A stretch of 64,000 nt of DNA, taken from positions 41 to 64,040 of the forward strand of contig CAZOHA010000009.1 of the NCBI GenBank assembly GCA_964579515.1, given 5' to 3'. The notes under the pieces were generated by a model that did no database searches, had not been told where the DNA came from, and was given only the letters and a program-made list of their open reading frames with translations. This document shows positions 2,576-21,240 of this stretch, piece after piece (the first letter of the stretch is position 1; each line of letters begins with the position of its first letter). The DNA comes from an uncultured Bacteroides sp. (lineage in GTDB: Bacteria; Bacteroidota; Bacteroidia; Bacteroidales; GCA-2748055). The translations under genes were made by a program, and so were the position numbers.

Positions 2576-2610
2576 TAGTATGCTTCTGTAACCCGAAAAC
2601 CACTACATCA

Positions 2611-4478: not shown

Positions 4479-5078
4479 ATGGCACCAATTACTCAATCAA
4501 TGCAACAGGAAATGTCTCCGGCAGAAGCCCTGGAGAGACTGACCGGGGGCAACCGCCGGTTCGTCGAAAAAAAACTGAAAGAGACCGATCTGATGGAGCA
4601 GGTGCATGCCACCTCCGGAGGGCAGTATCCATTCGCAGCCATACTTGGCTGCATCGATTCCCGTGTTCCTGCCGAACTGATCTTTGATCAGGGTATCGGG
4701 AACCTGTTCAATGCCCGGGTGGCCGGAAACATTGTCAATAAAGATATCCTGGGCTCCCTGGAGTACTCCTGCAAGGTGGCCGGGTCGAAGGTGATACTGG
4801 TCCTGGGCCACACCTCCTGCGGGGCGGTGACTGCAGCCTGCAATCAGGTGGAAATGGGGAACATCACCCACCTGCTTGCCGGGATCCGGCCCGCTGTGGA
4901 ATCGTTCAGCCAGGAAGAACTGGTGGTGGACGATGTGGCGCGAAAGAATGTCCTTCATTCCATGGAACAGATCAGGCAGGAGAGCCCCATACTGGCAGAG
5001 ATGGAGCAAAAGGGGGAGATCATCATCCGGGGTGCGATGTACGACATCTCCGACGGCCGGGTGAGCTTCCTGGACTGA
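4479..5078 (+). CDS. Beta-class carbonic anhydrase
   Basis: 199-aa ORF with the beta-CA zinc-ligand motifs CIDSRV and GHTSCGAV. It begins 20 nt downstream of the SulP gene. Confidence 0.9.
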   Translation: MAPITQSMQQEMSPAEALERLTGGNRRFVEKKLKETDLMEQVHATSGGQYPFAAILGCIDSRVPAELIFDQGIGNLFNARVAGNIVNKDILGSLEYSCKVAGSKVILVLGHTSCGAVTAACNQVEMGNITHLLAGIRPAVESFSQEELVVDDVARKNVLHSMEQIRQESPILAEMEQKGEIIIRGAMYDISDGRVSFLD

Positions 5079-5160: not shown

Positions 5161-5237
5161 TGGTGGAGGTAGGGGGAATCGAACCCCCGACCTCGTGATT
5201 GCGAACCACGCGCTCTGGCCATCTGAGCTATACCCCC
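5161..5237 (-). tRNA. tRNA-Ala (anticodon CGC), CCA encoded
   Basis: The reverse complement folds as a 77-nt cloverleaf: acceptor GGGGGTA/TACCTCC with the G3:U70 Ala identity pair, D-stem GCTC/GAGC, anticodon stem CGTGG/TCACG with loop TTCGCAA, T-arm GGGGG-TTCGATT-CCCCC, and 3' ACCA. Confidence 0.93.
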
Positions 5238-5260: not shown

Positions 5261-5821
5261 TTACCGGATCCGGCTCCGGGAAAGGGCTGCTGCACGGTTA
5301 TATTCTTCCCGGCACACCATGCAAAACCGGTGTTCCTTCTGCTCCAGGTCCTCCACATAGGTGCTGGAGCGCATCACACAAGCCGGATGGCTGCAGTGGA
5401 TCAGACCGAAGGTATGCCCCAGCTCATGAATGATCACCTTGGTAAACCGCCCGATCAACAGTTCATAATCGGGTTTCAGCCCGTAATGCTCATTTCTCAG
5501 GCGGAAGATAGATACCACTCCTGTGCGCCCGTTCAGATGAGCCTGTCCGAAGATGTAGGTGAGGATGGGAATATAGAGATCGACCCTTGCCATCCCGATC
5601 ACCCTGACCGCCTCGGCCGGGGCACGCTCGGTGATCATTCTCAGTAATTCGTCGGCATCGTACTGACGCCGCACCGGATTATAGAAGTCGCTGATATCCA
5701 GGCTGCACTCCATCAGTTCCACGGGGAAGTGAAGCTCCCGGGTCACGTTCTCGGCCACTCTTTCAGTCAGCTTTTTCTCGAACAACCCGCAGGAAACCAG
5801 TATAATGCTTTGATCGCTCAA
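5261..5821 (-). CDS. Archaemetzincin-like zinc metalloprotease (peptidase M54)
   Basis: 186-aa ORF containing HELGHTFGLIHC (HExxHxxGxxHC), followed by CSHPACVM and FCMVC (the four-Cys second zinc site). It starts 6 nt after the stop of the response-regulator gene. Confidence 0.8.
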   Translation of the reverse strand: MSDQSIILVSCGLFEKKLTERVAENVTRELHFPVELMECSLDISDFYNPVRRQYDADELLRMITERAPAEAVRVIGMARVDLYIPILTYIFGQAHLNGRTGVVSIFRLRNEHYGLKPDYELLIGRFTKVIIHELGHTFGLIHCSHPACVMRSSTYVEDLEQKEHRFCMVCREEYNRAAALSRSRIR

Positions 5822-5827
5822 AGCCGG

Positions 5828-7165
5828 TTATTCCTCTTTTAGTTCGTATTTCCGGATCTTATTATAAAGGGTGGCCCTGTCGACGTTCAGGGCCCGGGCC
5901 GACCGGGAGATGTTCCATTTGTATTTTGAAAGGATCCTGGCGATATGCTTCCGCTCCAGCTCCTCCAGACTCTCAATGGAGCTGCTCATGGCCTCCTGAC
6001 CCATGGGCAGGTCCTTCAGCCTGATCACCTTTCCGTTACCCACCACGATGGCCCTTTCGATCATATTCTCCAGTTCTCTGACATTACCGGGGTATTCGAA
6101 CGATTCCAGGTGTTTCAGTGCGGCCGGTTCGATGGTGATCATATCCCGGCTCATGGAGGTGCAGTACTTCCTGATGAAATGGTCGACCAGGAGAGGGATA
6201 TCCTCGGGGCGCTCCCTGAGCGGCGGGATGCGGATATTGACCACGTTCAGCCGGTAGAAAAGATCCTCCCGGAAGGTCCCGTTTTCCACCATGCTTTTCA
6301 GGTCCCGGTTGGTGGCGCAGATGATCCTGAAATCGGAAGTGATCTCCCTGGAACCCCCGACGCGGACAAAGGTTTTCGTTTCCAGGACCCTCAGCAATTC
6401 CACCTGCATCTTGGATGAAATGGTGCCGATCTCATCCAGGAATATCGTGCCACCATCGGCCATTTCAAACCTCCCCTTCCGGTTAAAGGCGGCACCTGTG
6501 AAAGCGCCTTTTTCATGCCCGAAAAGCTCACTCTCCAGCAGACTTTCGGAAAGGGCACCGCAATGAACACTGATCAGAGGGAAATATTTCCTGGGAGAAT
6601 TGGAATGGATGGCCCTTGCCACCAGTTCTTTGCCCGTGCCGCTCTCCCCGGTGATAATGACCGAAGAGTTGGTCGGGGCCACACTCTCCACCTCCCTGAG
6701 TACCTTCCGGAGCGCCTCACTTTCTCCCACAATATCCTCCACGTCCGTCAGGGTGGTGATCTTATCCCTGAGACCCACATTCTCCTTCTTCAGGGTCACC
6801 TGTGTGGCCGCATTGCGGATCAGGTGAGAGAGATCATCCGGATCAAAGGGTTTGGTCACATAATCGAATGCTCCTTCCTTCAGTGCCTGGACGGCAGTAT
6901 CGACCGAGGCAAAAGCAGTCATAATGATCACTACGGGCTCTCCGGAAAGGGCTTTAATCCGCCTGTGCAGCTCCATCCCGTCCATGCCCGGCATCTTGAT
7001 ATCGACGAGTATAATATCGAAATCCCTGTCATCGAGCAGCTTTAGTGCTTTCTTGGCATCCTCGGCGCACTCGACATGGTATCCCTCCTCGATGAACCAG
7101 TTGTAAAGAGAATCCCGGACCGATTCTTCATCATCGACGATCAACATGGATATTCCTTTATTCAT
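5828..7165 (-). CDS. Sigma-54-dependent response regulator (NtrC family: REC + AAA+ + Fis-type HTH)
   Basis: ORF 5828..7465 trimmed to ATG 7165 (MNKGISMLIVDDEES). It has the receiver-domain motif DIILVDIKMPGMDG, Walker A GESGTGKE, the GAFTGA motif, and the C-terminal HTH ARALNVDRATLYNKIRKY. It overlaps the kinase stop by 8 nt. Confidence 0.9.
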   Translation of the reverse strand: MNKGISMLIVDDEESVRDSLYNWFIEEGYHVECAEDAKKALKLLDDRDFDIILVDIKMPGMDGMELHRRIKALSGEPVVIIMTAFASVDTAVQALKEGAFDYVTKPFDPDDLSHLIRNAATQVTLKKENVGLRDKITTLTDVEDIVGESEALRKVLREVESVAPTNSSVIITGESGTGKELVARAIHSNSPRKYFPLISVHCGALSESLLESELFGHEKGAFTGAAFNRKGRFEMADGGTIFLDEIGTISSKMQVELLRVLETKTFVRVGGSREITSDFRIICATNRDLKSMVENGTFREDLFYRLNVVNIRIPPLRERPEDIPLLVDHFIRKYCTSMSRDMITIEPAALKHLESFEYPGNVRELENMIERAIVVGNGKVIRLKDLPMGQEAMSSSIESLEELERKHIARILSKYKWNISRSARALNVDRATLYNKIRKYELKEE

Positions 7166-8819
7166 GAGATGATGGTTTTTCCTCCGCAAGCGGCAGAATA
7201 ATTGAAATGGTCGTCCCCCTGCCCGGCTCCGAATCCACCTCGATCTTCCCCTGGTGATTCTCCACGATCCCGTGTACAATGGAGAGACCCAGTCCGATCC
7301 CGCTGGTATCGCGTTTGGTGGAATAGAAGGGTTCGAAAATATGGGAAATGTCCCCGGGTGCGATCCCGACCCCGTTATCGGTGACACTCCACCGGATGCG
7401 CTTCTCATCGGGATTGGAAGTGCGGACAGTGATTTCGCCGTTCTCCCGGATCGCCTCCGTGGCATTCACCATGATGGCCACACATACCTGCTTGATCTGG
7501 TTGGGGCTGCAGTGGATCAGGTCATTTTCGGCATGGAAAAGATTCGTCAACTGAATATCGGCGATCTTGATGGAATGCCGCATCAACTTGCAGGTGTCGG
7601 AAAGCAGGCCGTGCAGGTGGCACGGCTCGAAATCCTCCCGGTCCTGGCGGGAGAAATCGAGAAGTCCGCGCACGATATCGCCGCAGCGCTTGGTCTCCGT
7701 CTCGATCAGCTTCAGGTTTTTCAGAATGCTTTCCTTCTTGGGATGATGGAACTCCGGGCGGTCGAGCTGTTTATGGATGAGCCGGTTGTAAACCAGGATC
7801 CCCGACAGGGGGTTATTGATCTCATGGGCCACCGAAGAGGAGAGTTTACCCAGTGAGGCGATGCGCTCCACATGGATCAGTTCGTTCTGGGCGGCAGAGA
7901 GCTCCTCCGACTTTTTCTGCACTTTGTATTCCAGTTGCCGGGACCAGTTTTGCAGCTCTTTGGTGGCCATTTCTATATTATCGAGCATATTGTTGAACGC
8001 CTCGGATACCAGCCTCATGTCATTCAGCAATCCCGGCTTGATCTCCAGCCGGATGGAATGATCTCCGCCGGACACCCTTTCACTGGCCTGAATGAGCGAG
8101 TTGAGCGGCCGTTTGATCCGCCGGCGGGTAAACAGGACCAGGAAAGTGACCATCAGCACAGTGATCAGTGTGGCTAGTAACATAAAATCGGTGGAGGATT
8201 GATCGGCAAATGCATCGAGATCGTCCAGTGGCATGGTGATCAAAAGGGATCCGAGCACAGGCTCATCCTCCGGGTGATAATGGCAGTCGGCCGTGCTGCA
8301 GGATGGTTCATTGAGTATGGACTTTTTGATCAGCAGGTGACGTGCTCCCTCATTCGTCTGGCGGATCCCGCATTCAGGGATATTTTCCACCACCAGGTAA
8401 GCCTTTTCTCCCGGCGGGAACATCGAGGAGATTCCGGAATGACAATCAGTACAGCTGGGATTCCCGTCCAGATCCGGATCCCCGGTCAGGCTCGAGTATG
8501 CCAGAAGGTCGTTCTGGTCGTACATATTGACCTCATCGATCCCCGACATGGTACTGATCATATCCAGGGTTCGCTGCAGCATGGCTTGGTCGTTCTCCAG
8601 CATCGAATAGTAGAGCGATCCCTCCACGATGGAGCTGATCTGGTCCCCGCTGCGGCCGAGGGTCTCATTGAAGAAATCGGTGTAGATGGTACGGAAAACC
8701 AAAAGGAACAGGATGAAGAGAATCAAAAGAGAGCCTGTTATAATGAACACCACCCTCCCGTAAATGGAAGATCTGAACTGGTAGAACTTCCTGAGAAAGC
8801 CCTTCATCGGTCCGCTCAT
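7158..8819 (-). CDS. Sensor histidine kinase (2 TM, periplasmic loop with haem-c binding motifs, HAMP, HisKA, HATPase)
   Basis: 553-aa ORF. TM1 is VVFIITGSLLILFILFLLVF and TM2 is FMLLATLITVLMVTFLVLF. The periplasmic loop holds CTDCH (CXXCH) and CSTADCH (CX4CH). The kinase core has H-box SSVAHEINNPLSG and G-boxes DNGVGI and GIGLGLSIV. Confidence 0.9.
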   Translation of the reverse strand: MSGPMKGFLRKFYQFRSSIYGRVVFIITGSLLILFILFLLVFRTIYTDFFNETLGRSGDQISSIVEGSLYYSMLENDQAMLQRTLDMISTMSGIDEVNMYDQNDLLAYSSLTGDPDLDGNPSCTDCHSGISSMFPPGEKAYLVVENIPECGIRQTNEGARHLLIKKSILNEPSCSTADCHYHPEDEPVLGSLLITMPLDDLDAFADQSSTDFMLLATLITVLMVTFLVLFTRRRIKRPLNSLIQASERVSGGDHSIRLEIKPGLLNDMRLVSEAFNNMLDNIEMATKELQNWSRQLEYKVQKKSEELSAAQNELIHVERIASLGKLSSSVAHEINNPLSGILVYNRLIHKQLDRPEFHHPKKESILKNLKLIETETKRCGDIVRGLLDFSRQDREDFEPCHLHGLLSDTCKLMRHSIKIADIQLTNLFHAENDLIHCSPNQIKQVCVAIMVNATEAIRENGEITVRTSNPDEKRIRWSVTDNGVGIAPGDISHIFEPFYSTKRDTSGIGLGLSIVHGIVENHQGKIEVDSEPGRGTTISIILPLAEEKPSSHE

Positions 8820-8867: not shown

Positions 8868-9575
8868 CTAAAGTTCCAGGAACTCCTTCCGGAAACGCTC
8901 CCAAACTTTTCCGTCGAGCTCCGAGAGGGGGAACTCCACAAGCTCACCGCCCTCCTGAAGCACCAGCCCGCGGGAATCTTCCTGCCTCTGGCTCAGAGCA
9001 CCGGAAAGGAAATCCTTGAACCTCACCAGTTCCGATCTGATCCATTCCCTGGCTTCGGTCGCCAGAAAGTACGGCCCGGTCTCCTCTTTCCAGTTCTCCG
9101 GCTCGATCCTGTAAAGCCAGGATCCGTAGGGATCCTCGAACATGGGAGTGCTGTCCTCTTCCAGCGAATGACGGCTCTGCACCACCCGGCCGGAAATGGG
9201 AGATCCGATTTCCAGCTCTTTCCCATCCTGAATGACTCGTGCCAGGATCTCTCCCTTTTTCACAATCGAGCCATCCGCAAGGACCAGTTCCACCCTGACC
9301 CGGCCGGTCAGATGAAGCAGAAGATCATCCAGTCCCACATTGGCCTTACCGGAGCGGGTCAGGTATGCCCAGGTATGATTCCGGCTCAGGAAGACCCCGG
9401 CCGGTATCCGGAGCCTGGCCGGAGAAAGGGCGCCGGACCTCTGCCAGCCGGTCTTCACCTGGACCGGTTTATTAAGGTAGATCCAGAGGGGAATGAGTAG
9501 TACCAGGAAACCGATCACAATCAGGTATTCGATGCCCTTGGTGTCGAAAATGTCCGTATAAACAAATGGTTCCAT
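8868..9575 (-). CDS. Membrane-anchored GcvH-like (glycine-cleavage H / lipoyl-domain fold) protein with a conserved C-terminal extension
   Basis: 235-aa ORF with an N-terminal TM (YLIVIGFLVLLIPLWIYL). GcvH hallmarks are HTWA, VGLDD, SPISGRV and DPYGSWLYRI. Its roughly 190-aa cytoplasmic module is paralogous to the C-terminus of the 11718..13409 product. Confidence 0.75.
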   Translation of the reverse strand: MEPFVYTDIFDTKGIEYLIVIGFLVLLIPLWIYLNKPVQVKTGWQRSGALSPARLRIPAGVFLSRNHTWAYLTRSGKANVGLDDLLLHLTGRVRVELVLADGSIVKKGEILARVIQDGKELEIGSPISGRVVQSRHSLEEDSTPMFEDPYGSWLYRIEPENWKEETGPYFLATEAREWIRSELVRFKDFLSGALSQRQEDSRGLVLQEGGELVEFPLSELDGKVWERFRKEFLEL

Positions 9576-9595: not shown

Positions 9596-10825
9596 TCAGT
9601 GATTATCTTTTGCCCACTCGGGGGGATCGCGCAATACAGGCATCCGGCGAACGATCCACCGGAAAATCCATATCTCGACACAGAGTATCGTCAGTGTGAC
9701 CACGATCTCCATCCAGGAAGGAACATAGGGTGTGGCGGCATCCCATTTGAAACCGATGACCGTCACATTGAGCCGGTTCATGATCACTCCGAGCATGGTC
9801 CAGAGAGCGGAGAACTTTATCAGCCGGATATTCATCGTCCGGTAGCTGATAAAAAACAGGATCATCGGCAAAAGGACGAACCCGAGCATCTCCAGCAGGT
9901 ACCATGCACCCATCCTGGTCTGCAGCAGGTTCCAGTTCTTCCCGTGAGCCAGCACCACCACCTGCAGGGCGAAATATACCAGCATGGTCATGGCGCAGAT
10001 CCTGGAAAGGCCGTGGAGGATCCCGTTATGGGCGTGATGGTCCTTCTCGCTGATCTGGTCGAAGAAGACCCTGCGGCTGATAGAACCCTCAAAAATCACC
10101 ATGGAGAGTCCTGCAAAAATGCTGGAGACAAAGAACAGGATGGGAATGAACTCCGAATACCAGAGAGGATGGATCTTATCCCTGGCCATCAGGTAAAGGG
10201 CGCCCAGTCCCGACTGGTGCAGGGTCGACAGGGTGATCCCGAAGATGACCGCCGCAAGGGTCATTCCCGACAGGATCCTGCGGGCCCGTTTCGCCCCGAT
10301 CCATTCCGCAATGGCCGGGGAGAACTCGATCAGCTGCGCAACCATATACAGGAGAAAATGCCAGGCCACCAGAAAGAGGACCGAACTGACCCCAAAACTG
10401 TTACCGATGATGGGATTGATGACATTCCAGGGCTTTCCCAGGTCAAGCAACAGGGCCCCGGCATAAAACACGTAGGCCAGGAAACCGTTCAGCACGGTGA
10501 CCCGCACAATGGGACGGTACTTCTCCATATTGAGGATATATACCAGGAAGGTCACCACATAGGCTCCCCCTGCGAATGCCACCCCGGTCACCACGTCAAA
10601 TCCGATCCAGAGACCCCACGGAACTTCCTGGGTTAAATTGGTGATGGAACCGATCCCTTTGGCAAAGCGGATCACGATCAGTACGATGCCGGTCATGATA
10701 ATGGGAACCGAAATCATATTAAAGGGAGTGAACACCCTTCCCCTGGGTCTGAAAGCTTCCGCAAGGAATTTTCCGACGGGTCTCCCGTCATTGTCGCGGG
10801 AAATGGTATGGTCTGTGCTATTCAT
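9596..10825 (-). CDS. NrfD/PsrC/HybB-family polytopic membrane protein (quinone-interacting subunit)
   Basis: ORF 9596..10912 trimmed to ATG 10825 (MNSTDHTISRDNDGRP), which overlaps the upstream FeS gene stop by 8 nt. It has about 10 predicted TM helices. The sequence character and its position directly after an NrfC-like gene are typical of the NrfD family. Confidence 0.75.
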   Translation of the reverse strand: MNSTDHTISRDNDGRPVGKFLAEAFRPRGRVFTPFNMISVPIIMTGIVLIVIRFAKGIGSITNLTQEVPWGLWIGFDVVTGVAFAGGAYVVTFLVYILNMEKYRPIVRVTVLNGFLAYVFYAGALLLDLGKPWNVINPIIGNSFGVSSVLFLVAWHFLLYMVAQLIEFSPAIAEWIGAKRARRILSGMTLAAVIFGITLSTLHQSGLGALYLMARDKIHPLWYSEFIPILFFVSSIFAGLSMVIFEGSISRRVFFDQISEKDHHAHNGILHGLSRICAMTMLVYFALQVVVLAHGKNWNLLQTRMGAWYLLEMLGFVLLPMILFFISYRTMNIRLIKFSALWTMLGVIMNRLNVTVIGFKWDAATPYVPSWMEIVVTLTILCVEIWIFRWIVRRMPVLRDPPEWAKDNH

Positions 10826-11690
10826 GATCTTCCTCCTTTTTGGTATTCTTTTTTGTGGCATTGTGGATCCCCAGCAGCATGGCCGGCCACAGAATAAAAA
10901 TGGAAGGTACACTGTAGAGGAACCCTTTGGTCAGCTCGGGGTAGGAACTCTTCTGGATCTTTGTATTGAAAGCGAGCTCCTCGAATGGAACGGGCGAGAT
11001 ATACAAAAATCCGGTACCTCCGGCCTCATGCTCCCCGTAAATATGATCGTGGTACCAGTCAGGCATGTCATGGATCCGCTGCCTGGCTTCGGCGATCATC
11101 TCCCTGCGTGTTCCGAAGGTGAGTGCCCCGGCGGGACAATTCTCCACACAGGCAGGGATCTGGCCCTGTTGCAGCCGTTCGAAGCACATGTCGCATTTGG
11201 AGATCTTCGGATTCGGGCTGTGGTATTCGAACTTGGGAACATCGAAAGGACAGGACACCATGCAATACCTGCATCCCATGCATTTATCCTCACTCCATAC
11301 CACCGGTCCGCCGGGGGTCTTATGCATGGCCCTGGTCAGACATGCGGAAGCACAGGCAGGCTGGTTGCAATGCATGCACTGGTTTTTCACATAAACCTCC
11401 CCCTGAGAGGTTTCATAGGCATTGATAACGGAACGCCGGTTCTCATTGGCTTTTCGGGATACACCCGGAACGGGCAGATCGTTCTTCAGATCGGGCTCGG
11501 GAAGGCCGTGCTCTTCGGCACATACCAGCTCACAGGTCTGGCATCCGCCACACATATTGGCATCGAAAAGAACAGCCATCATCTCACCATCCTCTTTTTC
11601 CGGCCGGGCAGCACCCAGTTCCTTTCCTGTTCCCAGGGCCACACCTGTCAAACCGAGCGCCCTGAAAAAATTTCTTCTGTTGATTGCCAT
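10818..11690 (-). CDS. Tat-exported 4x[4Fe-4S] ferredoxin-type subunit (NrfC/PsrB/HybA family)
   Basis: 290-aa ORF with the twin-arginine signal MAINRRNFFRALGLTGVALG. Four cluster motifs are present: CGGCQTCELVC, CMHCNQPACASAC, CMGCRYCMVSCP and CDMC...CVENCP. Confidence 0.88.
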   Translation of the reverse strand: MAINRRNFFRALGLTGVALGTGKELGAARPEKEDGEMMAVLFDANMCGGCQTCELVCAEEHGLPEPDLKNDLPVPGVSRKANENRRSVINAYETSQGEVYVKNQCMHCNQPACASACLTRAMHKTPGGPVVWSEDKCMGCRYCMVSCPFDVPKFEYHSPNPKISKCDMCFERLQQGQIPACVENCPAGALTFGTRREMIAEARQRIHDMPDWYHDHIYGEHEAGGTGFLYISPVPFEELAFNTKIQKSSYPELTKGFLYSVPSIFILWPAMLLGIHNATKKNTKKEEDHE

Positions 11691-11717: not shown

Positions 11718-13409
11718 TTAAGATCTGTTGAGAAATTTAAGCTGGAACTCTTCCCACTCGACCGGACCGAAATCCTCCAGAGCGGCGCTTTTGATCTCCC
11801 CGCCATCCTGGAGAACGACAGAGGGATCCTTTTTGTCCCTGCAACAACTCACCAGGAAATCCCTCAATCTGGAAATCTCACTCTTCAGCCAGTTGCGGTA
11901 CTTTTCACCCAGCAGAAAGTACTTCAGCTCTTCCATCCAGTTAAATGGCTGGACCAGGTACACCCATCCGCCGGCATATGGTTCCCGGTTCAGCATGCCG
12001 GCATCCTTTAACAGCACCGCATTGTACTCCTCCACTATGCCCGACACGGGCGATTTGATCTCGACCTGCTTTCCGTCCTGAACCAGTTTCACCAGGGATT
12101 CCCCCCTGCGGACCGTTTCACCCGGTTCTTTCATGATCACACGGGTAAGCCGGCCGGTGACATGCTGGATAAAATCATCCACACCGATCCGCACCCGGCC
12201 GTCCTTCTCCATGAAGGTCCAGGTGTGGGAGCGGTCGTAAAAAAGACCTTCGGGATGCGTGAGCCTGTCATGGGCAAATACCGGCTTATCGGACAGATCT
12301 GATTCATACATGCCACCCTTCCTCTTTCTGCCCCTGAAGGAGATCAGTACCGCCAGAGCGGAGATCAAAAGAATCCCGAGCAGGATGATCAGGATGATTT
12401 TCGTCACCGGTGCCACCAGTGGAACCACCCGGGCGGTTTCCTCTTCCTCCCCGGCCGCGAGCTGCTCCATACCCCGGTTTCTCTCCGCATACTCAATTCC
12501 CAGGAATCCCAGTGAAGCCAGATTCTCCTGTCCACCCGACAGCATCCAGCTTGCGAAGACCCTGCCATCCTCAGTGGCCGGAGGCTGTTCCGCCACCATA
12601 TATATTCTGTTATAGAGGGCATCGGGATATCTTCCCACGTAGATCCCGTGAGAAAGGTCGCTGCAGCACCGGAATATGTCCTCGAAGTGATCGATCTGCC
12701 CGTTTCCGTCAAGATCGATCGGCACCAGGCTGATCCCCGACTCCATGCCGGATTCGTGCCGCTTCATCAAAGCAGCCAGTGAGCAAAAACCCATGGCATC
12801 CCTCTCTGAAGCCACACGGTCGAGAAGCCCTTCCGGATCTTCAGGTGCCGTCCCGAGGAGATCCACGGGTTTCACCCCTATAAATTCAGAAAGATAGGTC
12901 CTCCCGCACTGGTTAGCCGGAAGAAAGGCCTCTACCCTGCCTGGATCATCCGTTCCGAGTATGCTCCCCCAGGTTATTTGCTCCCCGCCGGTAAAAATGG
13001 ACCGAAACTCCTGAGGAGTGATCCCTCTGTCCAGAATTTGTTCGCGGTGAGGATTCTGTGCATTGATAAAAGGCACCACCGCATCACGCCCGATCACCAT
13101 CCGGCAGGAGGGTTTGATCCCCTCAAATATCCGGCAGCCCTGATATACCAGTGCAAAGCTCCGCTTATTCAAATTTTCTCCAACCTTATCATCGGGCACG
13201 GCAACCACATGGACCGGGATGCCGGGATGTTCCTTCTGAAAAGCAGAGACCTGACGGATGGCCAGGTTCTCCAGTTCCGGGGTACAGATCAGCTTCAGGT
13301 GTTCTCCCTCCCCGTTTTCATTCAACCCGGACTGGGCGAAGCATGCAGTCATTGCCAGGCATACCAGCGCGACCGAGGTCATCATCTTCTTTGTTGTAGT
13401 TTTCATCAC
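11718..13409 (-). CDS. Fusion protein: exported PstS-like (PBP_like_2) periplasmic binding domain, one TM helix, and a cytoplasmic GcvH-like module
   Basis: 563-aa ORF with signal/lipoprotein-like N-terminus MMKTTTKKMMTSVALVCLAMTAC. The PstS-family motif ITPQEFRSIFTGGEQITWGSILG is present. The TM helix IILIILLGILLISALAVLISF is followed by RGRKRKGG. The GcvH-like part carries HTWTF, IGVDD, SPVSGIV and EPYAGGWVYLVQP. Confidence 0.8.
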   Translation of the reverse strand: MMKTTTKKMMTSVALVCLAMTACFAQSGLNENGEGEHLKLICTPELENLAIRQVSAFQKEHPGIPVHVVAVPDDKVGENLNKRSFALVYQGCRIFEGIKPSCRMVIGRDAVVPFINAQNPHREQILDRGITPQEFRSIFTGGEQITWGSILGTDDPGRVEAFLPANQCGRTYLSEFIGVKPVDLLGTAPEDPEGLLDRVASERDAMGFCSLAALMKRHESGMESGISLVPIDLDGNGQIDHFEDIFRCCSDLSHGIYVGRYPDALYNRIYMVAEQPPATEDGRVFASWMLSGGQENLASLGFLGIEYAERNRGMEQLAAGEEEETARVVPLVAPVTKIILIILLGILLISALAVLISFRGRKRKGGMYESDLSDKPVFAHDRLTHPEGLFYDRSHTWTFMEKDGRVRIGVDDFIQHVTGRLTRVIMKEPGETVRRGESLVKLVQDGKQVEIKSPVSGIVEEYNAVLLKDAGMLNREPYAGGWVYLVQPFNWMEELKYFLLGEKYRNWLKSEISRLRDFLVSCCRDKKDPSVVLQDGGEIKSAALEDFGPVEWEEFQLKFLNRS

Positions 13410-13460
13410 TTCTATGGTTTAATATCAGTTTGAGGGTACCTTTGGACACACCGCTCAGAA

Positions 13461-13476
13461 TTCAAAGATTGTGCCA
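13461..13476 (-). promoter_or_regulatory. Candidate sigma-54 (-24/-12) promoter for the 13409..5261 operon
   Basis: The minus strand reads TGGCACAATCTTTGAA. TGGCAC and the GG-N10 spacing are canonical, but the -12 element is TTGA rather than TTGC. It sits about 52 nt upstream of the ATG at 13409, and a sigma-54 activator is encoded in the operon. Confidence 0.35.
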
Positions 13477-13632
13477 CACACATCTTAAATCCTGGTTCAC
13501 TGATACTTACAATCATTTATCTGGTTTTGGCATTTCCAGAATGTGATGTTTTTTTCAACACTACAATTTGAATAGGGGTGTGAACAGGTTCTTTCTTAGA
13601 GCATTACGCATTATGTCGATTTTTTTAGCATC

Positions 13633-13649
13633 TGTTGTAATTTACAACA
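13633..13649. promoter_or_regulatory. 17-bp palindrome TGTTGTAA-T-TTACAACA in the divergent intergenic region (possible activator or operator site)
   Basis: Perfect 8-bp inverted repeat around a single central base. It lies about 160 bp upstream of the putative -24 element and about 130 bp upstream of ATG 13777. Confidence 0.3.
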
Positions 13650-13706
13650 ATAAACAAGGAAGGTGATTTAGAGCGCAGAATGCCGCCTTCTTTCAAGCTA
13701 TTATGA

Positions 13707-13724
13707 TAAATTTGTATAGTTTTG
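13707..13724 (+). promoter_or_regulatory. Two adjacent TAnnTTTG -7 boxes (TAAATTTG, TAGTTTTG) upstream of the 13777 gene
   Basis: Exact TAnnTTTG matches at 13707..13714 and 13717..13724, which are 53-70 nt upstream of ATG 13777. Confidence 0.4.
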
Positions 13725-13776
13725 GGGCGGATTTAAGAAAACTATCACCAAATACGCCTAAAATAATTACAATCCT

Positions 13777-15732
13777 ATGGTACCGGACATTTTAAAGACA
13801 TTATCGGAGAAGGGAGTGGAACTGCCGGAACAGGTGGCCGGTCTGCTGCGCTCATGCAGAAGCTTCCAGTGTTTCAGTACTACGGCAGAGCTGGTCGATG
13901 CCTCCACGGCGGGTATTGAAAATAAAGAGTTCCGGGTAACCTATCCTCTGCCGGGAGAAAACCGGGAGGTGACCGAAGCGATCGTTCACCGGGTGAGGAA
14001 CGGAATATCGGTCAACTATCCGGAACCCTATATGCGGCGCAGGGATCCCTCCACCATGTCGATCGCCGATGCCACCCCCACCGATAAGAAACTATTCAGC
14101 GATAAATACGGTTACGAGTTCGAGGACCTCAGAAAAGAGACCCTTGACTGGTTAAAAGAGCAGGACCTGGCCATGTTCTTCTATTTCGCCGGTCGGATGG
14201 GGATCGGTTCCCTGGGCCTGGCGATTGTTCCTTCCAACTCCGCCTTTTTCGCCATGGGATTGTCCATGTTGCAGGAGATGGTCGATCCGGTGACCATCGC
14301 CGACGGGACGGAGATTAAATCGGTGATCTTCGTGGCACCGGTGTTCAGACATACCCATTTCGACGGAAAACAGGTAGTGGTCCATAACCGGACAGAACAC
14401 GTGCATGAGCTGTATGCATACAATCTCTATCCCGGTCCCAGTGCCAAAAAAGGATTATACGGGGTTTTGCTGTCCCAGGGTGAAAAAGAACAGTGGATCA
14501 CGGCTCACTGCTCGGCGGTGCAGTCGATCTCTCCTTACGACAATGTGACCACCTTCATGCACGAAGGAGCCAGCGGGGGAGGAAAAAGCGAGATGCATCA
14601 GCACATTATCCGGGAACCGGATGGAAGGGTACTGCTGGGGACCAACACGTTCAGCGGAGAGGAGCGGTTCATTACCATTCCCAGGTTCTGTACCTTCCTC
14701 CCCATCGCCGATGACATGGCCTTCTGCCATCCGTCCCACCAGCGGGAGGACGGTAAACTGAGGATCCTGGATGCTGAGAACGCCTGGTTCGTGCGGGTTG
14801 ACAGCGTAACCGCTTACGGGGACGATCCGTTCCTGGAAAAAGCCACCATCCATCCCGGTAAACCTTTGCTGTTCCTGAATATTGATTCACAGCCCGAATC
14901 CACCGCCCTCATCTGGGAACATATTGAGGATGAACCCGGAAAACCGTGCCCCAATCCCCGGGTCATCCTTCCGCGGGATACGGTTCCCAATGTCATCGAA
15001 AATCCCGTATCGGTCGATATCCGGAGTTTCGGGATCCGGTCACCTCTCTGCTCGGCAGAAGACCCCACCTACGGGATCATCGGGATGTTCCATATTCTGC
15101 CCCCGGCCCTGGCATGGCTCTGGAGGCTGGTAGCCCCCCGCGGCCATAAAAACCCCAGCATCGTCTCCACCGGCCAGATGGAGAGCGAGGGGGTCGGATC
15201 CTACTGGCCCTTTGCCACCGGTAAACGGGTGGTCCATGCCAATCTCCTGCTGAAGCAGATCATCGAGACACCCAGGACCACCTTCACCCTGGTTCCCAAC
15301 CAGCATATCGGGGTATGGAAGGTGGGCTTCAAGCCTCAGTTGCTGATGCGTGAATACCTCACCCGCAGGGGGGTGGCCAGGTTACGGAGCGACCAGTATC
15401 AGCCGGCACGCTGTCCGTTGCTGGGGTATGAACTGAATTACCTGACCCTGGAAGGCTCCAAGATCCCCTCCCGGTTCCTCAAGGTCTACAATCAGACCGA
15501 AGTTGGGGTGGAAGGATATGATGCCGGCGCCGCCCAGCTGAGGGAATTCTTTCACAGTCAGCTTCATCAGTTCCTCCAGGAGGATCTGTTGCAGACGGGC
15601 CGGAGAATTATCGAGGCATGCCTTTCCAATGCCAGTGTCGAGGAGTACAACGAAATCGTGCCCATGACTTACCAGTACAGGTTCACCAACATGGAATCGT
15701 ACGAACAGACCTCCCTCTTCAACGGGCAGTGA
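13777..15732 (+). CDS. Conserved hypothetical protein with an HprK/PEPCK-like P-loop (possibly the DUF4914 family)
   Basis: 651-aa ORF with no signal peptide. It contains HEGASGGGKSEM, which resembles the GxSGxGKSE P-loop of HPr kinase/PEPCK-fold enzymes. The DUF4914 family name is from memory and is unverified. Confidence 0.7.
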   Translation: MVPDILKTLSEKGVELPEQVAGLLRSCRSFQCFSTTAELVDASTAGIENKEFRVTYPLPGENREVTEAIVHRVRNGISVNYPEPYMRRRDPSTMSIADATPTDKKLFSDKYGYEFEDLRKETLDWLKEQDLAMFFYFAGRMGIGSLGLAIVPSNSAFFAMGLSMLQEMVDPVTIADGTEIKSVIFVAPVFRHTHFDGKQVVVHNRTEHVHELYAYNLYPGPSAKKGLYGVLLSQGEKEQWITAHCSAVQSISPYDNVTTFMHEGASGGGKSEMHQHIIREPDGRVLLGTNTFSGEERFITIPRFCTFLPIADDMAFCHPSHQREDGKLRILDAENAWFVRVDSVTAYGDDPFLEKATIHPGKPLLFLNIDSQPESTALIWEHIEDEPGKPCPNPRVILPRDTVPNVIENPVSVDIRSFGIRSPLCSAEDPTYGIIGMFHILPPALAWLWRLVAPRGHKNPSIVSTGQMESEGVGSYWPFATGKRVVHANLLLKQIIETPRTTFTLVPNQHIGVWKVGFKPQLLMREYLTRRGVARLRSDQYQPARCPLLGYELNYLTLEGSKIPSRFLKVYNQTEVGVEGYDAGAAQLREFFHSQLHQFLQEDLLQTGRRIIEACLSNASVEEYNEIVPMTYQYRFTNMESYEQTSLFNGQ

Positions 15733-18912: not shown

Positions 18913-21240
18913 ATGAAACCGAAACACGCACTCCTTTTCGCCCTTCTTCCGCTCATTTCGTGCAATCCGGACTCCACTGCGGACATGAAGTACGGGCCGG
19001 AAGAGATCACCACCGAACCTCCGGCCATTTCTGCTGAAATGGAACAGGTGCTGGAAGAGGGAATGATGCAGAACTGGTACCCCCGGTGTCTCGATACGTT
19101 GTACGGTGGATTTCTGAGCAACTTCGACCACCGCTGGAACCAGATGGAGCGGCAGCCCAAATTCATCGTGACCCAGGCCAGGCATACCTGGACAGCCGCG
19201 CAGATGTTCCGATGGGATCCTGGCAATCCCCTCTATCTGGAAGCAGGCCGGCATGGTTTTGAATTCCTGAGAGACCGTATGTGGGACAGGGAGTACGGCG
19301 GTTTTTTCACCATGACTGACCGCCGGGGGAACCCGGTGGAGAACGAACAGGCGGGAATGACCAAGACCGCCTACGGGAATGCCTTTGCCATATACGGCCT
19401 GGCTGCATATTTCGGGGTATCCAGGGACTCTGCCGCCCTGGAACTGGCGCAAAAGGCATTCCGGTGGCTGGAATCCAACAGCCATGATCCTGTTTACGGG
19501 GGATATTTTCAGTTCCTGGAACGAGACGGGACACCTCTCACGGAGGGACACCGGGGAACGCCCCCCAAGGACCAGAACAGCTCCATTCACCTGATGGAGG
19601 CATTCACCGAACTTTACCATGTATGGAAAAATGAGCTGCTCCGTTCCAGGATCGAAGAGATGCTGGTACTGATCCGGGATACCATCACCACCGACAGGGG
19701 GTATATGCACCTTTTTTTCAGGAGAGACTGGACCCCGGTCTATTATACCGATGAGGCATATCCCTGCGGAGACAACAGGCACCTGTTCGATTACATCTCC
19801 TTCGGTCACGATATCGAAACCGCCTTCCTCCTGCTGGAGGCTGCCGAGGCCCTGGGCAGAGAAGAGGACGAAAGAACCCTGGAGGTGTCCAAGCGGATGA
19901 CCGACCATGCGCTGAACAACGGATGGGACCCGGAGACCGGGGCACTGTTCGATGCCGGTTACTATTTCTCCGATGAGGAGCATGTCACCATTCTCGATTC
20001 GGCCACAGCCTGGTGGTCGGCGGTGGAGGCCTTTCACACCATGCTGCTGATGTCCTCCCTCTACCCGAACGATCCCATGGAATACTTCGACCGGTTCGCC
20101 CTAACATGGGACTACTGCAAAAAATACCTCATCGATCATGAATACGGCGGATGGTACCGGGCGGGTACCAATCATGAACCCGGGGCCGCGGAAGGGAGCA
20201 AAGCCGGGATCTGGAAGGGGAACTACCATACCGCCCGTTCGCTGATCCGCTGCATGAAGATGCTGAACCTGCCCGATCAGGACCCGGAAGAACCGGTCAA
20301 CCCGGATGCCTCGCCCGAAGCGCGCGCGCTTCTCGAATACCTTCACCGGATCAGCGGCGACAGCATCCTTTCAGGGCACCAGAACTACAACCGCGACCTG
20401 GACCGATGGCACCGGTACGTGGAAGAACTGACCGGAGAATCGCCGGCCGTATGGGGGAGCGATTTCAGCAGGTACTATGAAGAGGGCAATCCCGAGGCCC
20501 TGGTGGAAGAGGCGGTCCGCCGTCATAAAGAGGGATATGTGGTGACCCTGATGTGGCACACGGGCAGGCCCCAGGACGACCCTCCCTTCGACTGGTCGAC
20601 CAGTACGCAGGGGGAAATGTCTACGGAGGAGTGGGAGCAGCTCATCACACCGGGAACAGCGCTTCATGCCAAATGGCAGGAGAGGGCCGATTCGGTGGCA
20701 TTCTATCTGAAACAGCTGTGCGACCGGGGTGTTCCGGTGCTGTGGAGGCCCTACCACGAGATGAACGGGATCTGGTTCTGGTGGGGGGACAAGAAAGGGG
20801 AAGAGGGGTTCCCCGCCCTCTGGAAGATGATGTATGACCGGTATGTAAACCACCATCAGCTTCACAACCTGATCTGGGTATGGAATGCCAACGCTCCCCG
20901 CGACAGGGAAAACGACGAGGCCTATGCCTACGAATTCTATTTTCCCGGGCTGGAGTTTGTGGATGTGCTGGCCGCCGATGTCTACCACAACGACTACCGG
21001 CAGGAGCACCACGACCAGTTGGTGGAAATGGCCCACGGAAAAGTCATTGCACTGGGAGAGGTGGGTGAGATGCCCACTCCGGAGATCCTGGACCGGCAGC
21101 CCATGTGGACCTGGTTCATGGTCTGGACCGGGTGGGTGGAGACCCACAATACTCCGGAAAAGGTCAAGGCACTCTACGCTTATCCCAGGACCCTCTCCCA
21201 CGGAGAGTTCCGGATCGATTTTGGAAGTGCCGGAAAATGA
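18913..21240 (+). CDS. Lipoprotein fusion of an AGE-superfamily (N-acylglucosamine/cellobiose 2-epimerase-like) domain and a GH26 beta-mannanase domain
   Basis: 775-aa ORF with lipobox LLPLISC. AGE-like motifs are YGGFLSNFDHRW, TQARHTW, NSSIHLMEAFTELY, FGHDIETAFLLLEA and YGGWY. The GH26 signature is WRPYHEMNGIWFWWG, with ALGEVGE as the putative nucleophile region. Confidence 0.8.
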   Translation: MKPKHALLFALLPLISCNPDSTADMKYGPEEITTEPPAISAEMEQVLEEGMMQNWYPRCLDTLYGGFLSNFDHRWNQMERQPKFIVTQARHTWTAAQMFRWDPGNPLYLEAGRHGFEFLRDRMWDREYGGFFTMTDRRGNPVENEQAGMTKTAYGNAFAIYGLAAYFGVSRDSAALELAQKAFRWLESNSHDPVYGGYFQFLERDGTPLTEGHRGTPPKDQNSSIHLMEAFTELYHVWKNELLRSRIEEMLVLIRDTITTDRGYMHLFFRRDWTPVYYTDEAYPCGDNRHLFDYISFGHDIETAFLLLEAAEALGREEDERTLEVSKRMTDHALNNGWDPETGALFDAGYYFSDEEHVTILDSATAWWSAVEAFHTMLLMSSLYPNDPMEYFDRFALTWDYCKKYLIDHEYGGWYRAGTNHEPGAAEGSKAGIWKGNYHTARSLIRCMKMLNLPDQDPEEPVNPDASPEARALLEYLHRISGDSILSGHQNYNRDLDRWHRYVEELTGESPAVWGSDFSRYYEEGNPEALVEEAVRRHKEGYVVTLMWHTGRPQDDPPFDWSTSTQGEMSTEEWEQLITPGTALHAKWQERADSVAFYLKQLCDRGVPVLWRPYHEMNGIWFWWGDKKGEEGFPALWKMMYDRYVNHHQLHNLIWVWNANAPRDRENDEAYAYEFYFPGLEFVDVLAADVYHNDYRQEHHDQLVEMAHGKVIALGEVGEMPTPEILDRQPMWTWFMVWTGWVETHNTPEKVKALYAYPRTLSHGEFRIDFGSAGK

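What the first reader, a model, noticed from the sequence alone, without database searches (positions are those of the whole stretch)
11718..13409. Unusual domain fusion: exported PstS-like binding domain, TM helix and cytoplasmic GcvH-like module
The N-terminal 320 aa or so carry the PstS/PBP_like_2 hallmark (ITPQEFRSIFTGGEQITWGSILG). The usual anion-binding SGT(R) stretch reads QCGRT, so the ligand may not be phosphate. One TM helix followed by RGRKRKGG places the GcvH-like module in the cytoplasm. A solute-binding domain wired through a single helix to a lipoyl-fold domain resembles a receptor architecture, but it has no known output domain. I am not aware of a characterised example.
Basis: partly seen in the sequence, partly recalled or inferred. 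Interest (0 to 1): 0.65.

Follow-up and report, generated by a model that had tools for sequence, protein, structure and literature searches.

The report
Membrane-tethered H-protein with PstS-like ectodomain
The gene is real and encodes a membrane protein, conserved across many Bacteroidia, that joins an outside PstS-type binding domain (no longer built for phosphate) to an inside glycine-cleavage-H-type domain, and it heads an uncharacterised seven-gene redox-sensing cluster whose function nobody has tested.

Summary
ORF 11718-13409 (-) encodes: signal peptide, periplasmic PstS-fold domain, one TM helix, cytoplasmic H-protein (GcvH) domain, and a conserved 73-residue C-terminal extension with no known family.

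The fusion is not an artefact. Full-length relatives occur in at least 80 species-level Bacteroidota genomes, and metagenome contigs from two runs of one study cross the domain junctions without indels.

All four phosphate-binding elements of PstS are lost. The family instead has an EF-hand-like loop (80/83), a near-invariant Cys (82/83) and an invariant Lys at the lipoylation position (83/83).

The gene is first in a sigma-54-promoted cluster: A, an HmcB/HybA-like Fe-S protein, an HmcC/HybB-like NrfD quinone subunit, a short paralogue (TM + H domain + same C-terminal extension), a sensor kinase whose periplasmic PDC-like domain carries CxxCH and CxxxxCH motifs (67/67), a sigma-54 response regulator, and an archaemetzincin.

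Best reading (inferred, about 0.4): A is a tethered accessory or co-sensor subunit of this haem-based redox-signalling module. It is not a phosphate receptor, and it probably does not signal by a conformational change through its TM helix.

Main rival: A is a subunit of a new Hmc/Dsr-like redox complex that uses a lipoyl arm.

I found no literature on it.

The parts
11718..13409 (-). Gene A: signal peptide, PstS-fold ectodomain, TM helix, H-protein domain, C-terminal extension (563 aa; the likely true start is the ATG at 13406)
13335..13409 (-). N-terminal signal peptide (residues 1-25, MKTTTKKMMTSVALVCLAMTACFA). Cleavage type not determined; the lipobox is not conserved in the family.
   Evidence: export is inferred from the sequence
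12450..13304 (-). Periplasmic type-II binding-protein domain of the PstS/PBP_like_2 fold (residues 36-320). None of the four phosphate-binding elements of PstS is conserved.
12681..12716 (-). EF-hand-like 12-residue loop DLDGNGQIDHFE (residues 232-243). D232 and E243 are invariant. The pattern is met in 80/83 relatives. Probable Ca2+ site (inferred).
12783..12785 (-). Codon of Cys209 in the motif (A)IGFC, conserved in 82/83 relatives. PstS proteins have GY-V/I at this position.
12333..12407 (-). Single TM helix (residues 335-359) followed by RGRKRKGG. Flanking linkers 322-334 and 360-374 have pLDDT below 50. This region is the least conserved (17% identity).
11940..12254 (-). Cytoplasmic H-protein (GcvH-like, lipoyl-fold) domain, residues 386-490
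12069..12071 (-). Codon of Lys447, aligned by HMMER with the lipoyl-lysine of T. thermophilus and E. coli H-protein. Invariant in 83/83 relatives; Gly446 is also invariant.
11721..11939 (-). Family-specific C-terminal extension (residues 491-563). It has a long helix and the motif LQDGGE...GP..WEEFQ..F. It is shared with the short paralogue D. No Pfam match even at E<=10.
13462..13476 (-). Sigma-54-type promoter element TGGCAC-N5-TTGA, 53 nt upstream of the ORF. The same element (TGGCAY-N5-TTGA) lies upstream of gene A in 48 of 80 loci: 1.65 per kb there against 0.008 per kb elsewhere.
10818..11690 (-). Gene B: Tat-exported 4x[4Fe-4S] protein with a C-terminal anchor, HmcB/HybA-like. 16 Cys; the RR motif is present in 71/75 relatives.
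9596..10825 (-). Gene C: NrfD-family membrane quinone-interacting subunit, HmcC/HybB-like. The likely start is the ATG at 10825, which overlaps gene B by 8 nt as in homologous loci.
8868..9575 (-). Gene D: short paralogue (235 aa). It has a conserved 17-residue N-terminal tail, a TM helix, an H-protein domain and the same C-terminal extension. The Lys119 codon is at 9219-9221; that Lys is replaced by G, N or R in 12/66 relatives.
7158..8819 (-). Gene E: sensor histidine kinase (TM, periplasmic PDC/PAS-like domain, TM, HAMP, HisKA, HATPase). The periplasmic domain has CTDCH (8439-8453) and CSTADCH (8280-8300). Both motifs are present in 67/67 relatives.
5828..7165 (-). Gene F: sigma-54-dependent response regulator (REC, AAA+, HTH_8), AtoC/ZraR/NtrC type. 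It is 72-86% identical across loci. The true start is near MNKGISMLIVDD.
5261..5821 (-). Gene G: archaemetzincin-family Zn metalloprotease (HELGHTFGLIHC motif present). It is conserved at the 3' end of the cluster.

Best explanation
Shown. Gene A encodes a genuine bitopic inner-membrane protein. Its exported domain has the PstS fold. Its cytoplasmic part is an H-protein domain plus a conserved C-terminal extension found only in this family. It is the first gene of a sigma-54-promoted seven-gene cluster conserved in Bacteroidia.

Inferred. A is an accessory or co-sensor subunit of a periplasmic, haem-based redox-sensing two-component system. The proposed steps are:
1. The kinase E carries two c-type haems in a PDC-like periplasmic domain, and their redox or ligand state sets kinase activity.
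2. Where present, the HmcB/HmcC-like pair B-C, together with the small subunit D, connects that periplasmic redox chemistry to the menaquinone pool.
3. A is held at the membrane by a non-specific tether. Its ectodomain binds the kinase's periplasmic domain and/or a small non-phosphate ligand. That ectodomain has no phosphate-binding residues, has a Ca2+-type loop, and has a near-invariant thiol.
4. The H domain plus C-terminal extension, also present in D, engages a common cytoplasmic partner: the kinase core, the regulator or the protease G. The strictly conserved Lys447 may carry lipoate and so report cytoplasmic thiol/NADH redox state.
5. The phosphorylated regulator F activates the sigma-54 promoter in front of A, giving autoregulation.

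In function this resembles the accessory proteins YycH/YycI of WalK, or TorT of TorS. It does not resemble a PstS transporter component or a glycine-cleavage H-protein.
For: - Architecture, fold and topology.
- Conserved cluster A-B-C-D-E-F-G at 31-86% identity in essentially every locus with enough downstream sequence.
- Four loci keep A-E-F-G and lack B, C and D, with haem motifs, Cys and EF-loop intact. This ties A to the kinase and regulator rather than to B-C.
- The sigma-54 element is about 200-fold enriched upstream of A.
- Kinase sensor domain: CxxCH and CxxxxCH in 67/67 relatives. The predicted fold matches WalK, DctB and CitA, and also the Geobacter haem-c PAS sensors 3b42 and 3b47.
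- Phosphate-binding loops are replaced. GSTS becomes CSPE, with an acidic residue in 73/83. GSSAG, SR and SGT are not conserved.
- The TM and linker region is unconserved and the linkers are modelled as disordered, so it looks like a tether.
- Lys447 is 83/83 and aligns with the lipoyl-Lys.
- The H domain plus C-terminal extension is shared by A and D, with invariant motifs.
- Weak hint from distance-matrix partial correlations controlling for F: A ectodomain against kinase sensor +0.38, against B -0.21.
Against: - No experiment or structure of a complex supports any contact.
- The mirror-tree signal is weak and confounded by rate differences.
- B and C are among the most conserved genes and sit next to A in the order typical of catalytic-subunit/Fe-S/NrfD operons. 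That order fits an enzyme complex.
- The four A-E-F-G loci might have B-C-D elsewhere in the genome; this could not be checked.
- Lipoylation is doubtful in detail. The residue three before the Lys is Gln, not the Glu of H-proteins. The conserved Gly follows at +10, not +11. Paralogue D tolerates loss of the Lys in 12/66 genomes.
- Haem attachment to the kinase is inferred from motifs only.
Confidence: 0.4

Rival explanations
1. A, B, C and D form a new quinone-linked respiratory or redox complex of the Hmc/Dsr/Psr type. A's ectodomain would be the substrate-binding, catalytic-position subunit docked on the Fe-S protein B, perhaps doing thiol or sulfane-sulfur chemistry at Cys209. The membrane-tethered lipoyl arms of A and D would be cytoplasmic redox or sulfur carriers analogous to DsrC or LbpA. 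The kinase and regulator would only control expression.
For: - The gene order A / Fe-S protein / NrfD subunit is typical of such operons, and B and C overlap by 8 nt.
- B and C are strongly conserved, at 57-83% identity.
- Lys at the lipoylation position is invariant in A.
- Cys is near-invariant in the ectodomain.
- There is a precedent for H-like lipoate-binding proteins in dissimilatory sulfur oxidation (PMC6067878).
- D has a highly conserved periplasmic N-tail and TM segment, as expected of a complex subunit.
Against: - NrfD-type subunits carry no cofactor (PMC8076601). The cluster has no cytochrome b or HdrD/CCG protein. There is therefore no path for electrons to reach a cytoplasmic lipoyl group.
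- The ectodomain has no redox-cofactor motif.
- Four loci have A with the kinase and regulator but without B, C and D.
- D loses the Lys in 18% of genomes.
- LbpA's two conserved cysteines are not a feature of this family.
Confidence: 0.27
2. Regulated-proteolysis receptor. Binding at the ectodomain, or a redox change, licenses cleavage of A (and D) in the flexible juxtamembrane linker by the co-encoded archaemetzincin G. This releases the H domain plus C-terminal extension to act on the sigma-54 regulator or another target.
For: - G, with an intact HExxHxxGxxH motif, is conserved at the end of the cluster, including in the A-E-F-G variants.
- Long unconserved linkers, modelled as disordered, flank the TM helix.
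- The H domain plus C-terminal extension is the best-conserved part, so it could act as an output module.
Against: This is purely contextual. No archaemetzincin substrate is known. No conserved cleavage motif is visible in the linker, which is only 17% identical. The partial correlation of G is highest with the kinase cytoplasmic part (0.46), not with A (0.11-0.23).
Confidence: 0.12
3. Classical anion receptor. The ectodomain binds phosphate or a related oxyanion as PstS does, and transmits the signal through the TM helix to the H domain.
For: PstS-family fold and profile matches.
Against: - All four anion-binding elements of PstS are unconserved, and an acidic residue occupies the first loop in 73/83 relatives.
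- No pstCAB genes are nearby.
- The TM and linker regions are unconserved and the linkers are modelled as flexible.
Confidence: 0.08
4. Sequencing or assembly artefact that fuses two separate genes.
For: None found.
Against: Full-length relatives occur in at least 80 species-level genomes and hundreds of protein clusters. Contigs from two runs of one study cross the junctions with no indels.
Confidence: 0.01

Closest known systems
Glycine-cleavage H-protein (GcvH; PDB 3ab9, 1onl)
   Same: The fold matches (TM 0.93-0.95, rmsd 1.2-1.5 A, about 30% identity). The Lys at the tip of the hairpin aligns with the lipoyl-Lys. The N-terminal H(E/T)W motif and the PVSG and GW motifs are kept.
   Different: It is membrane-tethered and fused to an ectodomain. 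It has an extra conserved 73-residue C-terminal extension. Gln replaces Glu three residues before the Lys, and there is one residue fewer between the Lys and PVSG. No gcvT or gcvP lies nearby. It scores far below the NCBIfam GcvH cut-offs (69 against 117 bits).
LbpA, the lipoate-binding protein of the sHdr sulfur-oxidation system (PMC6067878)
   Same: It is an H-protein-like protein recruited to a redox system outside glycine cleavage, and it has a strictly conserved Lys.
   Different: LbpA is soluble, sits beside sHdr genes and a dedicated ligase, and has two conserved cysteines near its termini. None of this applies here.
PstS / PBP_like_2 phosphate-binding proteins (PDB 4jwo, 1twy, 4gd5/4q8r)
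   Same: Type-II periplasmic binding-protein fold. Profile and structure matches.
   Different: The phosphate-binding loops are not conserved. There is no ABC transporter. The family adds an EF-hand-like loop and a near-invariant Cys. The domain is tethered by a C-terminal TM helix.
Accessory membrane or periplasmic proteins that control sensor kinases (YycH/YycI with WalK; TorT with TorS; LuxP with LuxQ)
   Same: They are encoded with the kinase. They are single-pass or periplasmic binding-protein-like partners. The best structural match of the kinase model is the full-length WalK chain of the WalK-YycH integrative model.
   Different: None of them carries a cytoplasmic H-protein domain. No sequence relationship exists. 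The analogy comes from recalled knowledge plus operon logic.
HmcB-HmcC / HybA-HybB quinone-interacting modules, and the Geobacter haem-c PAS sensors GSU0582/GSU0935
   Same: Neighbours B and C match the HmcB and HmcC models (322 and 406 bits). The kinase sensor has haem-c motifs in a PAS/PDC-like fold.
   Different: The B and C scores are below the equivalog cut-offs (420 and 550 bits). No multihaem HmcA or hydrogenase is present in the cluster. The kinase has two motifs (CxxCH and CxxxxCH), whereas the Geobacter sensors have one haem.

Membership tests
GcvH (glycine cleavage system H protein) | H-protein / lipoyl barrel-sandwich fold | tested here: met
   Pfam GCV_H E=1.9e-19. Foldseek TM 0.93-0.95 and rmsd 1.2-1.5 A to 3ab9, 1onl and 3a8k.
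GcvH (glycine cleavage system H protein) | Lysine at the hairpin tip that carries lipoate | tested here: met
   Lys447 aligns with the lipoyl-Lys of 1onl and 3a8i. It is present in 83/83 relatives. Whether it is actually lipoylated cannot be tested here.
GcvH (glycine cleavage system H protein) | Acidic residue at Lys-3 and Gly at Lys+11, reported as important for lipoylation of H-protein (recalled knowledge, not checked in a paper here) | tested here: not met
   Lys-3 is Gln (70/83) or R/H/K. The conserved Gly457 is at +10.
GcvH (glycine cleavage system H protein) | Equivalog-level score, a soluble protein of about 130 aa, and gcvT/gcvP context | tested here: not met
   NCBIfam 69.4 bits against a cut-off of 117, and 61.6 against 115.85. 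The protein is 563 aa and membrane-bound. No gcvT or gcvP occurs in the cluster in the window or in the annotated loci L001-L003.
PstS / PBP_like_2 phosphate-binding protein | Type-II binding-protein fold with a Pfam PF12849 match | tested here: met
   26.5 bits in the whole protein (cut-off 27) and 28.7 bits for the isolated domain. 12/16 relatives match, best E=1.5e-10. Foldseek 4jwo E=6.7e-16.
PstS / PBP_like_2 phosphate-binding protein | Phosphate-binding residues: Ser/Thr loop 1, GSxxG loop, SR/D, and SGT | tested here: not met
   In the profile alignment to 4q8r/4gd5 and 1twy, GSTS aligns to CSPE, and GSSAG, SR and SGT align to unconserved residues. Position 45 is E or D in 73/83 relatives.
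PstS / PBP_like_2 phosphate-binding protein | Linked to the pstCAB ABC transporter | tested here: not met
   No transporter genes occur in the cluster or its flanks, in the window or in the annotated loci L001-L003.
EF-hand / DxDxDG calcium-binding loop | 12-residue loop with D at position 1, D/N at 3 and 5, G at 6, a hydrophobic residue at 8 and E at 12 | tested here: met
   80/83 relatives match positions 1-12 of the PROSITE-type pattern. D232 and E243 are invariant. Position 13 is N or D instead of hydrophobic, and no entering helix is present. The loop is therefore EF-hand-like only. Ca2+ binding was not tested.
LbpA (sHdr-associated lipoate-binding protein) | Two conserved Cys near the N- and C-termini, and an hdr-like gene neighbourhood | tested here: not met
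   No conserved Cys occurs in the H domain or the C-terminal extension. No hdr genes occur in the loci. The defining features are taken from PMC6067878.
Hmc / Hyb-type membrane redox module (neighbours B and C) | Tat-exported 4x[4Fe-4S] subunit plus an NrfD-type subunit | tested here: met
   HmcB model 322 bits and HmcC model 406 bits. 16 Cys and the RR motif in 71/75 relatives. Both scores are below the equivalog cut-offs, so these are a related subfamily and not Hmc proper.
Hmc / Hyb-type membrane redox module (neighbours B and C) | A partner catalytic or multihaem subunit (HmcA, HybOC) in the operon | tested here: not met
   No such gene occurs in the cluster. Only the kinase carries haem motifs.

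The most novel reading that the evidence does not exclude
A membrane-tethered, lipoylated H-protein module (the H domain plus the new C-terminal extension) is a previously unknown signalling output or input domain. Its dithiol/disulfide state, together with a periplasmic di-haem kinase and an HmcBC-like quinone module, would let the cell compare periplasmic or quinone-pool redox state with cytoplasmic redox state and drive sigma-54 transcription. That would be a new role for lipoate in signal transduction.
Probability: 0.15. Interest if true: 0.85.

Novelty: new variant of a known kind. Interest (0 to 1): 0.62.

Why it matters
H-proteins and PstS-type binding proteins are textbook soluble components of metabolism and transport. 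Here both are repurposed into one membrane protein, conserved across hundreds of anaerobic Bacteroidia lineages from sediments, microbial mats and hypersaline or sulfidic waters.

The protein heads an uncharacterised operon that couples an Hmc/Hyb-like quinone module to a haem-motif sensor kinase and a sigma-54 activator. Working it out could show three things:
- How these abundant fermenters and anaerobic respirers sense redox conditions.
- Whether lipoate has a signalling role.
- What archaemetzincins do in bacteria.

It also corrects database names. The short paralogue is widely annotated as 'glycine cleavage system protein H', which it almost certainly is not.

Tried and rejected
- Artefact fusion: rejected.
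- Phosphate binding: rejected on residue conservation.
- Literature: seven searches on GcvH/NrfD/HybA, GcvH-like plus kinase, haem kinase plus sigma-54 plus NrfD, LbpA plus NrfD, HmcB/HmcC plus Bacteroidetes, archaemetzincin plus sigma-54, and Prolixibacteraceae plus HybA. None mentions this protein or cluster. The NrfD review PMC8076601 does not mention glycine-cleavage or lipoyl partners, or kinases.
- C-terminal extension: no Pfam hit at E<=10.
- Kinase sensor domain: no PDB sequence hit at E<=10. Its relatives in the protein database are all the same Bacteroidota kinase family.
- Upstream activator sites: no inverted repeat was found in the 13400-13790 intergenic region.
- RNA evidence for co-transcription: no RNA run is available.
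- Mirror-tree partial correlations gave only weak hints.
- I could not inspect model coordinates. I could therefore not describe the pocket, the position of Cys209 and the EF-loop relative to the cleft, or how the C-terminal extension packs.
Full report
**1. The observation**

The window has an ORF at 11718..13409 on the minus strand (563 aa from GTG). Relatives start 'MK..KKM', so the ATG at 13406 is the likelier start.

Pfam finds GCV_H at residues 390-510 (E=1.9e-19). PBP_like_2 at residues 38-291 scores 26.5 bits, a hair under the 27-bit cut-off. The isolated ectodomain scores 28.7 bits, and 12 of 16 relatives match, best E=1.5e-10.

An AlphaFold model built on 34 family members has mean pLDDT 81.4. 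Foldseek against PDB returns two sets of top hits:
- PstS-type phosphate-binding proteins: 4jwo (E=6.7e-16, TM 0.71), 1twy, 4gd5.
- H-proteins: 3ab9, 1onl, 3a8k (TM 0.93-0.95, rmsd 1.2-1.5 A, about 30% identity).

A single strongly hydrophobic segment separates the two domains in 83/83 relatives, with more K+R after it than before (3.7 against 1.5). Together with the N-terminal signal sequence, this puts the PstS-like domain outside and the H domain inside.

**2. Not an artefact**

- 47 full-length homologues at 31-45% identity were found.
- A scan of one genome per species confirmed 570 relatives. That count may include the short paralogue, because one of the two search patterns is a motif shared with it. 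The best 80 are almost all full-length, and all are Bacteroidota: Bacteroidales, Marinilabiliales, Prolixibacteraceae, Salinivirgaceae, and MAGs labelled Draconibacterium and Mariniphaga.
- A profile of the TM+H+C-terminal module finds 587 clusters (50% identity) at E<=1e-30. Apart from two fragments, the 150 listed are either ~530-594 aa or ~235-248 aa.
- Contigs from two runs of one metagenome study cross the domain junctions with no differences and no indels. Runs from two other studies hold near-identical pieces but do not cover the junction.

**3. Anatomy of the protein family** (83 sequences)

(a) Ectodomain.
- In a profile alignment to phosphate-bound PstS structures, the four anion-binding elements align to unconserved residues. 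GSTS aligns to C-S-P-E, where the last position is acidic in 73/83 relatives. GSSAG, SR and SGT have no conserved counterpart.
- The family has its own signature: VGRD.IVPV.N..NP, (A)IGFC with Cys209 in 82/83, and a 12-residue EF-hand-like loop D-x-[DN]-x-[DN]-G-x-[ILV]-D-x-x-E (residues 232-243) in 80/83.
- This is reminiscent of the Ca2+ loop of the galactose-binding protein (recalled knowledge). It lacks the entering helix of a true EF-hand.

(b) TM helix and both juxtamembrane linkers. These are the least conserved part (17% identity), and the linkers are modelled as disordered.

(c) H domain (59% identity). Gly446 and Lys447 are invariant.
- HMMER aligns Lys447 with the lipoyl-lysine of the T. 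thermophilus and E. coli H-proteins.
- The residue at Lys-3 is Gln rather than Glu, and the following strand is one residue shorter. Competence for lipoylation is plausible but unproven.

(d) A 73-residue C-terminal extension (51% identity) with the invariant motif LQDGGE...GP..WEEFQ..F. It has no Pfam match even at E<=10.

**4.

The gene is first in a minus-strand cluster:

| Gene | Product |
|---|---|
| A | this protein |
| B | Tat-exported 4x[4Fe-4S] protein, HmcB/HybA-like (322 bits) |
| C | NrfD-family subunit, HmcC/HybB-like (406 bits) |
| D | 235-aa paralogue: conserved 17-residue N-tail, TM helix, H domain, same C-terminal extension |
| E | sensor histidine kinase |
| F | sigma-54-dependent response regulator (AtoC/ZraR/NtrC type) |
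| G | archaemetzincin metalloprotease |

The order A-B-C-D-E-F-G is kept in essentially every one of the 84 fetched loci with enough downstream sequence. Across loci A is only 31-46% identical, while B is 57-74%, C 63-83%, E 55-72% and F 72-86%.

Four loci (L041, L043, L044, L057) go straight from A to the kinase; in L044 and L057 the regulator and protease follow (L043 ends within F, L041 within E), with no B, C or D between.

The kinase's periplasmic domain has CxxCH and CxxxxCH in 67/67 relatives. Its model (pLDDT 68) has a PDC/PAS-like fold. It matches WalK, DctB, CitA and CusS, and also the Geobacter haem-c PAS sensors 3b42 and 3b47.

A sigma-54-type element, TGGCAC-N5-TTGA, lies 53 nt upstream of A. 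The same element occurs upstream of A in 48/80 loci: 1.65 per kb there against 0.008 per kb elsewhere. The operon is therefore very probably driven by its own regulator.

Paralogue D keeps the lipoyl-position Lys in only 54/66 genomes (G, N or R otherwise). A keeps it in 83/83.

**5. Interpretation**

Shown:
- A conserved bitopic protein with an exported, non-phosphate PstS-fold domain and a cytoplasmic H domain plus new C-terminal extension.
- It heads a conserved, sigma-54-promoted cluster containing a quinone-type module and a haem-motif two-component system.

Inferred (about 0.4): A is an accessory or co-sensor subunit of that signalling system.
- The unconserved TM helix and the disordered linkers around it argue for a tether, not a conformational wire.
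- The A-E-F-G variants tie A to the kinase and regulator rather than to B-C.
- The shared H domain plus C-terminal extension in A and D suggests one common cytoplasmic partner.
- The strict Lys in A suggests a cofactor or a key contact.
- Partial correlations of evolutionary distances, controlling for F, are higher between A's ectodomain and the kinase sensor (+0.38) than between A's ectodomain and B (-0.21). This is a weak and confounded signal.

Main rival (about 0.27): A-B-C-D is a new Hmc/Dsr-like complex, with A in the catalytic-subunit position and lipoyl arms acting as DsrC/LbpA-like carriers.
- Gene order and the high conservation of B and C speak for it.
- Against it: NrfD proteins have no cofactors (PMC8076601) and no cytochrome b or CCG protein is present, so there is no transmembrane electron path. 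The BCD-less variants and Lys loss in D also count against it.

Lesser rival (about 0.12): regulated proteolysis by the co-encoded archaemetzincin. The evidence is contextual only.

The phosphate-receptor reading (about 0.08) and the artefact reading (about 0.01) are disfavoured.

**6. Comparison with known families**

The protein works with parts from GcvH and PstS but fails defining features of both.
- GcvH: the score is far below the equivalog cut-offs, there is no gcvT/gcvP context, and the protein is membrane-bound.
- PstS: the ligand residues and the transporter context are missing.
- LbpA: this family lacks LbpA's conserved cysteines and hdr context (PMC6067878).
- B and C resemble HmcB/HmcC but score below the equivalog cut-offs and have no HmcA partner.

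The nearest functional analogies are kinase accessory proteins (YycH/YycI, TorT, LuxP) and haem-c PAS sensors. These are resemblances, not memberships.

**7. Novelty**

Public sources call these proteins 'hypothetical', 'glycine cleavage system protein H', or a JGI double name. No paper in the searchable library deals with them.

I rate it a new variant of known kinds: known folds in an unprecedented, conserved arrangement and system. Interest is 0.62.

The most novel reading not excluded is a lipoyl-based signalling module. I put that at about 0.15 probability, with high interest if true.

Noticed in passing
window 8868-9575 (-): Short paralogue D (TM + H domain + same C-terminal extension). 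Many sources annotate it as 'glycine cleavage system protein H', which is probably a misannotation. It loses the lipoyl-position Lys in 12/66 genomes, while A never does.
   Followed up: yes
loci L041, L043, L044, L057: A variant cluster in which gene A is followed directly by the kinase (then regulator and archaemetzincin where the contig is long enough). The Fe-S protein, the NrfD subunit and the short paralogue are absent.
   Followed up: partly
window 7158-8819 (-), motifs at 8439-8453 and 8280-8300: Sensor kinase with CxxCH and CxxxxCH in a PDC/PAS-like periplasmic domain, plus a third conserved Cys at about residue 150. It is a probable di-haem redox sensor with no characterised relative.
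   Followed up: partly
window 5261-5821 (-): Archaemetzincin-family metalloprotease, syntenic with the two-component system in nearly all loci. It may be a clue to the unknown function of bacterial archaemetzincins.
   Followed up: partly
window 2608-4458 (+) and 4479-5078 (+): SulP/STAS anion transporter immediately followed by a beta-carbonic anhydrase, which suggests a bicarbonate uptake pair. A tRNA gene lies at 5164-5237 (-).
   Followed up: no
window 13777-15732 (+): DUF4914 protein (E=5e-284) divergently transcribed from the operon. It is not conserved next to the operon in other genomes.
   Followed up: partly
window 54001-56000: Strong negative GC skew (-0.21) and AT skew (-0.16) inside a TPR-SpoIIE phosphatase gene (53601-56288, -). 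Unexplained.
   Followed up: no
window 18913-21240 (+); 22866-24722 (-); 31025-32404 (+); 40837-42576 (-): A fusion of GlcNAc 2-epimerase-like and GH26 domains, and several proteins with T9SS C-terminal sorting domains. Together with TonB-dependent receptors, these fit a polysaccharide-degrading Bacteroidota genome.
   Followed up: no
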